Below are positions 50,642 to 60,849 of a stretch of DNA of 64,000 bases, in pieces; position 1 is the stretch's first letter; every line of letters starts with the position of its first letter. Location: positions 4,278,001-4,342,000 of the forward strand of contig CM038998.1 of assembly GCA_017499595.2 (NCBI GenBank), in the 5' to 3' direction. The position numbers and the translations under genes are program-made. Source of the stretch: Psilocybe cubensis. Taxonomy: Eukaryota. The notes below the pieces were generated by a model that did not search any database, had not been told where the DNA came from, and saw only the letters and a program-made list of their open reading frames with translations.

Positions 50642-53600
50642 TTAGACGATACCTAGCTGCCTTGCCTCTTCCCATTCTTTGGGGTACATTTTCTGGGCCG
50701 CAGCGGGGAACAGGCTCAATCTCGCATATCCACTGCGAGTCAAAGGATCCTTAATGGACATGAGGGCCTGAACCTTAGGATTTGGAGCTACATGAACTTT
50801 AGCCATGGCTGGGTTGTCAAACTGAGGTAGAGGGAGGATGGGCTTTTCGAGTTTTGTGGTGAGCACATACGGAATAGTGTATCTGATAACCTTTCGTCAG
50901 GGACGTTTCATTGAGTTACAAGGTCAGACATACCGGTCTTGATCGATCTTGAGTGTATTGACACGATGGGTTGTGGCCACTAGCTTTCCGCCAGTGAGGC
51001 GCATAAATTGCATCCCTGTTCAGAAGATACTGTTGACTAGATGGAACTGGTGCTAGACTGATTCATCACGTACCGACATTACACACTACTCCTCCTTCAA
51101 CCATTGGAATGTCGATCCACTTTCCGCTGTGATTTTGGACTTGAAGTCCAGGACGTGATTGAATTAAACAAGTGAGGAACGTTGAAGGGTCTCGGTGCTC
51201 GTGCATTCCATTTACAAATCCTTCGCGCTCTGAAGCTTTCATCTCAGGAGTAAGAGCAAGGTAATGCCAGATGGCACAGTTGAACTCCGTCTCTGAGGGG
51301 AAATAATCGCTGATCACTGATGCTGGGACATCCAGAAGCCGTGCAATATGCTCGTTCAGCTCCAAGTTCAGGATACGATAACGTTCAAAAAGCGTTTCAA
51401 TAGTCTTTCGGAATCCAGGGAGATCCGCTGCTGGTGGCCACTGGTTTGGACCTAGTATGTGCTTAATAACTATATGATTGGATGTACGGTTAGATCGTAC
51501 CTTCGTGGATTCGAAGCCAGAAGGGAACATCTGGGTCGATGTGAGCAGGTCTTTCGGCCCCAAAGCGGTATGCCTCAGCATATGCCTGATATCATTTATT
51601 AGCGTCTATCGATACAATAAATGGTAACTAGATTACCTTGTGAGGGCCTTCGATTGTATCCCCTCGGAAGTGGCCGCGAAGGGAAGCGGAATGCTCAGTT
51701 CCAATGGCACTCTTCCACTCCGCGGGCTTGTTGAAAAATTGAGCGACCAGATCGAAGACTTCATCTTGGAAGGATTGTTCGAACCCAGGAACATTGACAA
51801 AGATCCCAAATCCAACATCCTCTAGAGCAAATTTTAACTGTTTGTAATACTCTGAAGGATTCGATTTGGCCAGGGAGAAGTCGATCGTTGGGACAGCATC
51901 GAAATCTTGCTTGGGGGATATGGTAGGAGGAACCGGTGGGGACTGTAGGGCTTCAGCACGGTGAATAGCAGCCCTCATCTTCGAAGCAAAGGATTCGACG
52001 TGCTCCTCGGAGATCATGGTGTAGTGCTCGCCGTCGACATCGATCATCTCGAAATGTTTCCCAGAGTACTCTTTCCATTTAGAAAGTCGATCACGTTTGT
52101 ATTCCTCTCTGGTGCCCATAGAAGGGAGAGGAATGGCACAAAATACAGTAGTCAACGCGCCTTCAATCCGACCCGAAGGCAGGTACGTTCGTCCTACACA
52201 GAATAAGTTGGTGATATTGTTCTCTGTTTGTTATAGGAATGACACGCACCAGTGTACGATACATCGTACGCAACATTGACCCAACGATGGAAGTAGTCGA
52301 TAGGCATGTTGAGTTCCGCAAGCCTGGATTGGTTGCAATGCGCATATGTCCATTCGATAAGCTCCCTCGAGTTTGAGGGCTCTACATCAGAGTCTCCACC
52401 AGGATTTTGCAGAAGAAGAGCAGTTTTGAAGTGTTCAAAATCTTCTGACCGAATCAATGCCAAGAACATGGAAAGATTTAATCTGAGAAAGGAGGTACGC
52501 TGTGTTAAAAGAAGCTAATTGACCATGAATATGAAGGCTCACAATGTCTCCACCCATATCAATTCTTTTACTCGGAACTGAATGAAAGGTGGCAGGTTTA
52601 GCACGCCCAGCCAAGGAACCACCTTACCCTTCTTCTCGAGTAGTTTTCCTATCTCGAAAGCAATTCCCGCGCCAAAGCTGTATCCAGCTATATAGTATGG
52701 ACCGGTGGGGTTGTTTTTCAAAATGGCATCCGTATATATATCGACCATTTCTTGCATAGACGAGGGAGGTGTTTCGCCGGCTTCAAAGCCTCTGGCACGC
52801 AGAGTATAAACCGGTCGATCGTCATTCAGAACACGGGCAAGATTAATGAAGATGAGAACTTCGCCAACACCAGGGTGGACAAGATATAGAGGTGGTTTAG
52901 ATCCTTGTGGATTGAAGCATAGGAGTGGGTTGTAGGACGCCTGATGATCGTTCCCTTTGTTGACCAGCTCTTGGACGTAGGCCGCAATATCGGATACAAC
53001 TGGACGTTGTAGCAGCTCGATGGTAGGAATGTTTACAATTCCGAAATGGTCCTGAAGGAACGTTTTCAACCGGATAAGGTGCATAGATGACGCGCCCATG
53101 TCGAAGATGTTCAGAGACAGATCGATAGATGCCAAGTCAATCTCGAAAATAACGGATACTCCTTCACAAACAACCTGCTCCAACGGCGACCGGGGGGCAT
53201 TGGAGGATGCGCGAGCCTGTTGCCGCCGAGCAGAAGCCTCGCCAATGAACTTTTCGATGACATTAAACTTTCCTTCTCCATAGGCCTTCGCTAGCGCGAT
53301 ACGTGAAACCTTTCCCAGGGCAGTCTTGACGAAGAAAACTCGGGGAAGAGGAAGGACCACATGGGGAGCCTGTGAACAAAAGGCCGCACAGACATTTCGT
53401 ATGCGTTGACTTGTATTGAGCACGTTCTCCAATTGGTCGTCAGTCAATGAGTTCAAAGTAGCCTCCTCGATTGCCACGTCGGTATGCTGGTAGAACACAG
53501 TGTATGTTTCGGTATCAGCACCTTCAAGTCGCAATGCACACACAAAAACAAGTGAACTTTCAACCCCAGAAATGTTGGAGTCTGCTATGTAGTGCTCAAT

Positions 53601-58741: not shown

Positions 58742-60849
58742 TTATTTGGTGACTTTGAATATCTGTGAAAAGTATCTCCTGACATCTTCTTCCTTGTCGA
58801 CCATAGCTCCGATATAGGTATCCGGTCGCACTATAACAATTGTCGACTCTCTGACGCAGTTCTGTTCCACGTATGCGTCGTAAGCATGCTCATTGCTATC
58901 CTCTACCACAAAATCGGTCTGTGCAGAGTTGAAGTCGACTTTAGACTGGGTTTTTGGCAGAACCACAACAGTCTTGAATAATTCCGAAGGATATTCTTGG
59001 AGTGAAGCGATTACGAGAGAGGAAAGGGCCTGATCTTTGGAGAAAATTAACACTGTGTGGTAGGACGACCCAAATATCTTGAATAGGCTTGTCGGACCAC
59101 CTGTGCCTTTGCGATGGACCAAACCGGGAGCATCAGGGGCGCGATCTCCAGCACGTACTGTAATTCCTGTGGAGAAGGTGTAGCGTGTACCTTTCGTGTG
59201 TATGGTGTCAATGACAAGGGAACTGCCTCTATAGTTCATGTGAAGCATGTCGAAATCTCCTCCACGGTTCCAGGCATCGTTGTCTTCGTCGGCAATGGAG
59301 CTCTTAAATGTCTTCTCATGGACTTCACGTGTCTTATCGAGCATTTCTGCAATGACAGGCAATCGTTCAGGTCCATAGGAATCGAGGAGCGATGGAGGAG
59401 CGAATCCCCTGACGACTGCCGCCATTTTCCATCCCAAATTTATCTATCGAGTGACAGTAAGTCTCAAATCAACGAATCTATTATGAAGTCTGACTGACTG
59501 CGTCATGAATTCCAGAATTTAACCCTTGGGCGCCTGTAACGTGTTCGTGAGATTCGTGAGATGACCTGCTTTGAATAACATACCGCTCAATGCAAATATG
59601 TGCGCAGCATCTAATACAACAAATAAGTGAAATGTCATCTATTTTCAAGATGGATAATACTTACCCCCAGCCACGAAGCATCGACCCTGGGAGTACTTTT
59701 CGACTGTTCGAATATTTGGCCTATTTTCGCGCGTTAAATGTCGTGAAAACTTGGGTGCATTGACCAAACTCACGTATATGATGAAATCCATAGAAGATTT
59801 CCAAATTTAATCTCGCGCCTTCCAGTGAGCTCATATATGTCTTCAATCAATGCTTCTCGACTGGCCGCCACTTTTTTGTGATCGACTTCAGCTCCAGTGT
59901 ACAGCATGTACATATATTTAGACGTCAAATCTTCTCCTGCGCAAAGTGATATCCTAGACGAGTATCAAATTCTTCGTCAATTCCAGAACCCACGCGAAGG
60001 TTATCTGAGGTACGCACTGCTTTGTCATTGGTTCTCCACAAAAGAACCATCTCTGAAAAATGAAATCAATCAAATAATCACATCAGTATTATTTATGAAG
60101 AACATACGTCACGATTCAAGCCCTCAAGGACTTCAATATCACCAATGATATAGCTTTGAGACGTTGTTTCACCATAGAAGCCTAAGTTCAGCCTTTTTCT
60201 AACCATACTGTGAGCACCTTCTGCTGATAACAGGTATGGTGTAGTGACTGTCTCCATGACGTGGTCACCGTCAATTCCTTGAAGTTTTTTCTTCAGGGTG
60301 ACTGTAACGCAGTCTTGGTGTTGTTCAAAATCTTGCATCTCAGTCTCCCATTCGACCTCGACACCCGCTTTCTGCAAGTGGTCGCGAAGAATCGCTTCGT
60401 GACGCGACTGCCAGAGGATCACCGGGTTCGGCTAGCAGGAGGATCAATTATAGTAACCCGATGGCTATATGGAGGAAGTACTGACATATGGGCGGTCTGC
60501 GGTAGGCTCAATATACGGCGCCATATCGAAGACCTTTGACGGCTCTCGTGCCTGTGGCAGGTAAAGTTCCGTTGTCAAAGGTGGTCCGGCTATCTTCAAT
60601 ATGTCCGGGAGTGTTCCAATAACACCATGCAATTCGAGGGTACGAGGCATAATACCTCCTCCACGTTGTCCTATGAATGGGCTACTGCGTTTCTCCACGA
60701 CACGGACAGAAGCTCCATTCTGAACTAACGATAGGGCCAGGGTAAGGCCTGTAGGGCCTGCACCAACCTGAATGGATGAAGATTGGTTAACAAATTTGGA
60801 GGCTGTGCACACAGGCAATGCGACATACGATGAGGATTGGGGTGGACAT
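58742..60849 (-). CDS. FAD-dependent aromatic monooxygenase (FAD_binding_3, phenol/pentachlorophenol hydroxylase-like), multi-exon
   Basis: [99 protein letters not shown]. Confidence 0.9.

What the first reader, a model, noticed from the sequence alone, without database searches (positions are those of the whole stretch)
50642..60849. Compact three-gene cluster predicting an O-methylated, oxidised terphenylquinone pathway
Seen: synthetase-dioxygenase (-), O-methyltransferase (+, divergent) and FAD monooxygenase (-, convergent) within ~10 kb. No aminotransferase (AtrD/TdiD-like), transcription factor or transporter is visible nearby. Inference: aryl-pyruvate dimer (polyporic acid/atromentin type), then O-methylation (betulinan-like) and hydroxylation or ring rearrangement. 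I know of no established end product for this gene combination; it is the best candidate for an undescribed system in the window.
Basis: partly seen in the sequence, partly recalled or inferred. Interest (0 to 1): 0.8.

Follow-up and report, generated by a model that had tools for sequence, protein, structure and literature searches.

The report
Magic-mushroom polyporic acid tailoring cluster
A known Psilocybe pigment-precursor synthetase gene sits in a conserved group of tailoring genes, shared with other mushrooms, whose end product is still unidentified; this offers a direct test of the enzyme's unexplained extra domain.

Summary
All three genes are real and have open spliced frames. The synthetase is the published Psilocybe cubensis ppaA2 (4471 bp, 9 introns, 1326 aa; PMC10316625), which gave no product in two Aspergillus hosts. 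Its paralog ppaA1, a proven polyporic acid synthetase, lies just beyond the window with its own divergent O-methyltransferase, so the finding is half of an old tandem duplicate (the scan noted ppaA1 before). What I did not find in print is the context. This methyltransferase clade shares a contig with a quinone synthetase in 12 other mushroom species, with accessions 1-2 apart in 9 of 9 pairs checked. The monooxygenase's closest relative lies in the same cluster in Termitomyces T112. A hemerythrin-domain gene and a membrane-protein gene also recur. The fused dioxygenase, called inactive in print, is the most conserved domain (72% against 57% for A) and was tested without the methyltransferase. 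Best reading: polyporic acid, then O-methylation, then oxidation to an unidentified product (0.6). Against: PpaA2's failure, only antisense splice joints shown over the monooxygenase, and 19 of 29 other dioxygenase-bearing synthetases with no linked methyltransferase found. Verdict: new variant of a known kind.

The parts
50642..55112 (-). ppaA2: clade I quinone synthetase, A-T-TE fused to an Fe(II)/2-oxoglutarate dioxygenase (D) domain; 10 exons, 1326 aa
   Evidence: Gene model; identical to P0001; 1323/1326 identical to WJZ49102.1; length, intron count and size match PMC10316625; 6 of 9 introns seen spliced
50645..51900 (-). D domain, about residues 978-1326, with H1179, D1181, H1236 and R1247-x-T1249
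   Evidence: Pfam; conservation; T7H-like fold in a model of a relative
55113..56718 (.). 1606-bp divergent intergenic region (possible shared promoter; not shown)
   Evidence: Coordinates; no similarity to the matching region of the ppaA1 unit
56719..58355 (+). Class II SAM-dependent O-methyltransferase (OMT2), 418 aa, 7 introns
   Evidence: all 7 introns spliced; 80% identical to the OMT beside ppaA1; only these two copies of the clade found in the genome
58742..60849 (-). Group A FAD-dependent monooxygenase, 553 aa, 8 introns
   Evidence: 61% identical to Termitomyces T112 KAG5730171.1, on the same contig as that species' synthetase and OMT
58705..60210 (+). Spliced RNA antisense to the monooxygenase: + strand introns 59457-59515 and 60010-60086 seen, 58880-58944 inferred from contig coordinates; ends approximate
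   Evidence: joints read GT..AG on the + strand in both spliced contig sets (one study); intron ends checked; longest ATG frame 125 aa
61865..63163 (+). Membrane-protein gene, DUF6533-like (lead only), duplicated with the unit. The second unit lies beyond the window end (window numbering extended): ppaA1 70947..66516 (-), OMT1 71738..73419 (+), hemerythrin-domain gene about 76677..75673 (-)
   Evidence: 68% paralog in the ppaA1 unit; DUF6533 cluster at score 0.89, family on 55% of members; homolog beside an A-T-TE synthetase in L043; second unit

Best explanation
The locus is a conserved mushroom terphenylquinone cluster, duplicated in tandem in Psilocybe cubensis. Step 1 (shown in print for PpaA1; inferred for PpaA2): the A domain adenylates phenylpyruvate from general metabolism and the TE joins two units to polyporic acid. 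Step 2 (inferred, about 0.7): the divergent O-methyltransferase methylates the quinone core to the mono- or dimethyl ether (betulinan A type), or a reduced form of it. Step 3 (inferred, about 0.4): the fused D domain is an active Fe/2OG enzyme whose substrate is a later, probably O-methylated intermediate, which would explain why it looked inactive when expressed without tailoring genes. Step 4 (inferred, about 0.5): the flavin monooxygenase, an accessory gene of the Psilocybe/Termitomyces T112 sub-lineage, oxidises the electron-rich central ring (hydroxylation, epoxidation or ring contraction) rather than the plain phenyl rings. After the duplication one copy carries the monooxygenase and the other the hemerythrin gene, so both halves probably act as one pathway.
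For: Identity with published ppaA2/ppaA1. PpaA2 keeps T-Ser620, TE Ser757/His936 and Ile295 at code position 5. 13 of 26 named non-Psilocybe OMT-clade proteins (12 species) share organism and contig length with a synthetase; accessions 1-2 apart in 9 of 9 such pairs looked up; neighbouring locus tags in Antrodiella. Synthetase and OMT identities co-vary over 14 linked pairs (Spearman 0.90; kinship not controlled), and both Termitomyces T112 genes are closer to Psilocybe (63%, 72%) than to the other Lyophyllaceae pairs (52-54%, 50-52%). The monooxygenase's best full-length hit is T112 KAG5730171, on the contig of KAG5730173 and KAG5730175, sister with support 100 among 59 rows. D is the most conserved domain among 21 four-domain proteins (72% vs A 57, T 51, TE 63), and its iron ligands are kept wherever the model covers them. 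ppaA2 and OMT2 are spliced in both RNA-like runs. 25 of 27 listed strain differences in ppaA2 are synonymous (only 40 of 153 differences were shown). In print: fed polyporic acid is converted by P. cubensis and none accumulates naturally (PMC10316625); corA is flanked by three putative OMT genes (PMC9603100); in allantofuranone biosynthesis a dioxygenase of another class acts last, after methylation (PMC12105029).
Against: PpaA2 gave no product in A. niger or A. nidulans; mutating or deleting D in PpaA1 changed nothing; the authors judged D's substrate pocket unlikely to bind; fed polyporic acid gave phlebiopsins A and B, not reported methyl ethers; ppaA1 and ppaA2 move in opposite directions in fruiting bodies (log2 +0.9 vs -1.4) (all PMC10316625). 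Only 10 of 29 named non-Psilocybe synthetases with a D part have an OMT of this clade on the same contig in my lists, and 2 tri-domain ones do (word-limited searches). 7 of 26 OMT rows lie on a different contig from their species' synthetase, 4 had no synthetase row, 2 could not be judged. The monooxygenase link rests on one other genome (1 of 10 hits looked up). The two joints shown over the monooxygenase are antisense. 3 of 5 listed OMT2 coding differences change a residue. No enzyme activity was tested here.
Confidence: 0.6

Rival explanations
1. The ppaA2 half is a redundant or fading duplicate. The working pathway is ppaA1 with OMT1, and the monooxygenase is silenced by antisense RNA.
For: No product from PpaA2 in two hosts (PMC10316625); only antisense joints shown over the monooxygenase; a few PpaA2-only changes at conserved positions, e.g. 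318, 323, 715, 1159.
Against: Old duplication (synonymous sites saturated, pS 0.77) with dN 0.12 and no lesion; 25:2 synonymous to non-synonymous strain differences; catalytic residues intact; ppaA2 and OMT2 spliced; no frameshift listed in the monooxygenase in two DNA runs.
Confidence: 0.13
2. PpaA2 has changed substrate or needs a partner, so this half (PpaA2, OMT2, monooxygenase) makes a different compound from the ppaA1 half.
For: No polyporic acid from PpaA2 although it is under selection; the A domain diverged more than TE between the paralogs (dN 0.166 vs 0.061); the monooxygenase is found only in this half.
Against: A-domain pocket motifs nearly identical to PpaA1's, with Ile295 against Val at position 5; no other new peak was reported for ppaA2 strains; T112 shows one synthetase of this clade beside both OMT and monooxygenase.
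Confidence: 0.15
3. Synthetase and OMT form the pathway, ending at a methyl ether; the D domain is structural or acts on an unrelated substrate, and the monooxygenase is a detoxifying or bystander gene.
For: D is dispensable for polyporic acid and phlebiopsins (PMC10316625); D is absent or truncated in several annotated clade members, including OMT-linked Cubamyces; the monooxygenase family is large (1338 representatives; at least four other loci in this genome).
Against: D is more conserved than the catalytic A and TE domains; the monooxygenase forms a distinct pair with the T112 cluster gene, sharing unusual residues at 170, 172, 305 and 306.
Confidence: 0.22

Closest known systems
PpaA2 / PpaA1 of Psilocybe cubensis (Seibold et al. 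2023, PMC10316625)
   Same: The window gene is ppaA2 itself (1323/1326 identical to WJZ49102.1); the same A-T-TE-D layout; ppaA1 is its tandem neighbour.
   Different: The main text never mentions a methyltransferase, 'locus' or 'adjacent' genes. It calls the D domain unique and inactive; here D is found in 29 other named proteins (some only in part) and is the best-conserved domain.
Corticin locus of Terana caerulea (corA-F; PMC9603100)
   Same: Clade I polyporic acid synthetase with adjacent putative O-methyltransferase genes; aminotransferase is not mentioned in the main text.
   Different: CorA is tri-domain; three OMTs; the authors found no oxidising gene nearby; OMT activity not shown in the passages read. 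I could not test whether CorB-D belong to this OMT clade.
Allantofuranone alf cluster (PMC12105029) and ascocorynin pathway (PMC9047271)
   Same: Polyporic acid synthetase followed by tailoring; in alf the dioxygenase acts last, on an O-methylated intermediate.
   Different: Ascomycete pathways. AlfB is a stand-alone extradiol dioxygenase and needs the AlfC reductase, for which no counterpart was seen here. The phenyl-ring hydroxylase of ascocorynin is an unclustered P450, not a flavin enzyme.
Atromentin clusters of Boletales (clade II: AtrA, Nps3, InvA, GreA)
   Same: The same A-T-TE condensation chemistry.
   Different: A separate clade with Asn at code position 5 (PMC10316625) and a clustered aminotransferase (abstract of bioRxiv 2020.03.25.008516); neither is seen here.

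Membership tests
Basidiomycete clade I (polyporic acid) quinone synthetases | A-T-TE core with intact carrier Ser and TE Ser/His | tested here: met
   S620, S757, H936
Basidiomycete clade I (polyporic acid) quinone synthetases | Val at code position 1 and aliphatic Ile/Val at position 5 | tested here: met
   V221 and I295 aligned to CorA and PpaA1; rule from PMC10316625; position numbering is my alignment reading
Basidiomycete clade I (polyporic acid) quinone synthetases | Groups with CorA/HapA rather than atromentin synthetases | tested here: inconclusive
   50-51% identical to CorA and HapA1 and in one tree with them, but no clade II enzyme was in my tree; the placement is stated in PMC10316625
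Basidiomycete clade I (polyporic acid) quinone synthetases | Makes polyporic acid | not testable with these tools
   In print: PpaA1 yes; PpaA2 none detected
Atromentin (clade II) synthetases | Asn at code position 5 | tested here: not met
   Ile295
Fe(II)/2OG dioxygenase (DIOX_N + 2OG-FeII_Oxy) | HxD...H iron triad and R-x-S/T site | tested here: met
   H1179, D1181, H1236, R1247, T1249; T7H-like fold in a medium-confidence model of relative P0015
Fe(II)/2OG dioxygenase (DIOX_N + 2OG-FeII_Oxy) | Catalytic turnover | not testable with these tools
   No effect of D mutants of PpaA1 in print, tested without the cluster's tailoring genes
Class II SAM-dependent O-methyltransferases | Dimerisation plus Methyltransf_2 domains, glycine-rich SAM motif, catalytic His-Asp | tested here: met
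   best solved relatives GedA and MmcR at E about 1e-22 and 1e-20, too distant to give a substrate
Group A flavin monooxygenases (phenol hydroxylase type) | GxGxxG, DG and GD fingerprints with C-terminal domain | tested here: inconclusive
   GxGxxG and GD present, Pfam FAD_binding_3 and Phe_hydrox_dim; the DG Asp is Glu172 and the residues after GD deviate; 13 of 104 conserved columns differ against a median of 6; the changes at these two motifs are shared with T112
Biosynthetic gene cluster | Conserved physical linkage across species | tested here: met
Biosynthetic gene cluster | Co-regulation of the members | tested here: inconclusive
   ppaA2 and OMT2 both spliced in two contig sets of one study; contigs cannot rank expression; monooxygenase sense splicing not seen

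The most novel reading that the evidence does not exclude
The dioxygenase domain fused to these NRPS-like synthetases is a live tailoring enzyme that acts only after the neighbouring methyltransferase, for example by oxidising an O-methyl group to close a new ring (the benzopyran of betulinan B, or a methylenedioxy bridge as recalled for phlebiarubrone). Synthetase-D, methyltransferase and hemerythrin protein, plus a flavin monooxygenase in one sub-lineage, would then be a widespread cryptic pathway of Agaricales and Polyporales. In Psilocybe it would be split over two complementary tandem copies, with an antisense RNA over the oxidising gene.
Probability: 0.3. Interest if true: 0.75.

Novelty: new variant of a known kind. 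Interest (0 to 1): 0.52.

Why it matters
The 2023 paper leaves two open points: what the fused dioxygenase domain does, and why Psilocybe expresses a polyporic acid synthetase yet contains no polyporic acid. The conserved neighbours name the missing partners, so both points can be tested in one co-expression series. If the reading is right, it adds a phenylalanine-derived metabolite family to Psilocybe and to mushrooms such as Lyophyllum, Termitomyces and Macrolepiota, and gives a function to a tailoring domain fused to a quinone synthetase.

Tried and rejected
Two-gene reading of synthetase and dioxygenase: rejected (one exon, one spliced contig). Atromentin reading: rejected. Shared promoter motif between the two synthetase-OMT intergenic regions: none found; one weak 33-nt match to L031 at E 0.025. 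Monooxygenase remnant in the ppaA1 half or hemerythrin remnant in the ppaA2 half: none found. Metagenome scan: of 80 loci kept, most are about 31-39% relatives; only L031 showed this OMT clade and only L043 the membrane gene; the two monooxygenase hits were distant (26-28%). No run holding the stretch is on record as RNA; X1 and X2 are taken as RNA because of their splice joints. The uncovered 5' part of ppaA2 in those contigs is not evidence of anything. The structure model of a T-TE-D relative (pTM 0.54, D partly under pLDDT 50) confirmed the fold only. PDB sequence searches gave no close relative that indicates a substrate. Horizontal transfer between Psilocybe and Termitomyces: the grouping is noted (quick tree for synthetases, midpoint root) but was not tested; old paralogy with losses explains it equally well. 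The gene lying between synthetase and OMT in 7 of 9 accession pairs could not be fetched; hemerythrin is inferred from L031 only. No protein-complex job was run. Look-ups of earlier findings by sequence and by words returned nothing.
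Full report
Observation. The window is fungal, intron-rich DNA. Gene models give a 1326-aa synthetase (55112..50642, minus, 9 introns), a 418-aa O-methyltransferase (56719..58355, plus, 7 introns) and a 553-aa flavin monooxygenase (60849..58742, minus, 8 introns), all without internal stops. Pfam gives A, T, TE, DIOX_N and 2OG-FeII_Oxy for the first, Methyltransf_2 and Dimerisation for the second, and FAD_binding_3 with Phe_hydrox_dim for the third. The TE-D junction is inside one exon, and one spliced contig spans TE to the 3' end. 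No aminotransferase, regulator or transporter was hit among 118 open frames scanned (a selection of those).

Identity. Gene length (4471 bp), nine introns and 1326 aa match ppaA2 of Psilocybe cubensis in PMC10316625. The window protein equals P0001, which is 1323/1326 identical to WJZ49102.1, 'polyporic acid synthase-like enzyme'; I infer that this record is the deposited PpaA2. That paper shows that PpaA1 makes polyporic acid, that PpaA2 gave no product in two Aspergillus hosts, that both genes are transcribed, that P. cubensis holds no detectable polyporic acid but converts fed compound to phlebiopsins, and that D-domain mutants of PpaA1 behave like wild type. It leaves the function of D open and does not discuss neighbouring genes.

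The locus is larger than the finding. A paralog ends 2.5 kb past the window end (extended window numbering 70947..66516, minus); it has 4432 bp and 8 introns, which matches ppaA1. It has its own divergent OMT (71738..73419), 80% identical to the window's. A membrane-protein gene is duplicated too. The two units are 64-70% identical in DNA, with saturated synonymous sites, so the duplication is old. The monooxygenase occurs only in the ppaA2 half, a hemerythrin-domain gene (about 76677..75673) only in the ppaA1 half. A foldback element with 905-nt arms separates the halves. The OMT clade has only these two copies in the genome search.

Conservation. A search with the TE-D junction returned 75 proteins; 29 from named non-Psilocybe genomes carry TE plus at least the start of D. 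A search with OMT1 returned 30; 26 named non-Psilocybe rows form a tight group. Thirteen of these 26 (12 species) share organism and contig length with a synthetase, 7 lie on another contig, 4 have no synthetase row and 2 cannot be judged. I looked up 9 of the 12 matching species, and in all 9 the accessions are 1 or 2 apart; Antrodiella has consecutive locus tags; the two Cubamyces pairs were not looked up. This is indirect evidence from accession order. Direct DNA evidence comes from metagenome locus L031: synthetase, hemerythrin gene and OMT in a row, with synthetase and OMT divergent. In the other direction, only 10 of the 29 D-bearing synthetases have such an OMT in my lists, and 2 tri-domain enzymes do. 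Identities of the 14 linked pairs co-vary (Spearman 0.90), which kinship alone could give; the informative case is Termitomyces T112, whose synthetase and OMT both lie nearer Psilocybe than the other Lyophyllaceae pairs. The monooxygenase's best full-length relative (61%; next best about 47%) is T112 KAG5730171, on the same 119,613-base contig as that OMT (ending 173) and synthetase (ending 175). The other 9 of 10 hits looked up showed no such link. The two monooxygenases are sisters and share odd residues at two FAD-binding motifs, so these changes are not decay of the Psilocybe copy alone.

Function signals. PpaA2 keeps all checked catalytic residues and the phenylpyruvate-type Ile295. Of the listed strain differences in its coding sequence, 25 of 27 are synonymous (40 of 153 differences were displayed). 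D is the most conserved domain across 21 four-domain proteins, 72% against 57, 51 and 63% for A, T and TE, with the iron ligands kept in every row that covers them; an earlier scan note said the same (e1-7240354). That is hard to square with a dead domain. In two spliced contig sets of one study, 6 of 9 synthetase introns (4 of them in both sets) and 7 of 7 OMT introns are removed. Over the monooxygenase the two joints shown read GT..AG on the plus strand, and one contig retains a sense intron: this is antisense RNA. Two of 17 joints were not displayed, so sense expression is neither shown nor excluded.

Mechanism. Shown in print: polyporic acid from PpaA1. Inferred: O-methylation by the linked OMT, from conserved linkage and the Terana precedent (PMC9603100). 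Betulinan A is the dimethyl ether of polyporic acid and betulinan B carries a benzopyran ring (PMC3905119); that B arises by oxidising an O-methyl group onto the phenyl ring is my inference. An Fe/2OG domain suits such chemistry (general knowledge), and the published D tests lacked the OMT. Against this, the Lenzites synthetase in my list is annotated as tri-domain (P0063). Group A flavin enzymes act on electron-rich rings (general knowledge), and the known phenyl-ring hydroxylase of polyporic acid is a P450 (PMC9047271), so the monooxygenase more likely attacks the central ring. Phlebiarubrone and its structure are recalled and come from no call; its term drew no occurrence in the papers listed.

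Literature seen. PMC10316625: parts 1-4 of 7 of the text, supplement 1 parts 1-2 of 3, supplement 2 part 1 of 2 (legends only). PMC9400892: passages and supplement part 1 of 2; its Figures S5 and S6 are pictures I could not see and may show neighbouring genes. PMC12105029: parts 1-2 of 6. PMC9603100, PMC9047271, PMC3905119, PMC9379647: passages. bioRxiv 2020.03.25.008516: start of the abstract and one passage. Nine searches found no description of this OMT-monooxygenase-hemerythrin context; subscription journals and theses are not covered.

Verdict. The synthetase is known; the conserved tailoring context and the end product were not found in print. New variant of a known kind; interest 0.52, and 0.75 if D proves to act after methylation (probability 0.3).

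Noticed in passing
window 63944-64000 and on (L005 3944-6331): Foldback/MITE-like element between the two cluster halves, with 905-nt arms 99% complementary; high depth and loose ends in DNA runs suggest many copies.
   Followed up: partly
window 58705-60210 (+): Spliced antisense RNA over the monooxygenase, with one inferred intron inside the sense gene's last coding exon; longest ATG frame 125 aa.
   Followed up: partly
P0033 (Phlebiopsis gigantea PHLGIDRAFT_229718): Aligns through TE into the first part of the D domain (to about residue 1066 of PpaA2), although PMC10316625 cites the Phlebiopsis enzymes as canonical tri-domain; it may be a truncated gene model of a four-domain enzyme.
   Followed up: partly
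window about 44400-48200 (+): Spo22/Zip4-like meiotic gene flanks the cluster on the left.
   Followed up: no
window 58195-58251: GC-AG intron in OMT2, spliced in both contig sets; the matching intron of OMT1 is GT-AG.
   Followed up: yes
window about 25900-33200: GC-rich stretch (up to 62%) with long open frames and only a weak cyclin hit.
   Followed up: no
L043 1098-1775 and 3702-6725: An A-T-TE synthetase (47% identity) in a metagenome contig has the same membrane-protein gene divergent from it.
   Followed up: no
OMT2, window 56719-58355: The window's OMT did not appear as its own row in two homolog searches, although its paralog did; reason unknown.
   Followed up: no
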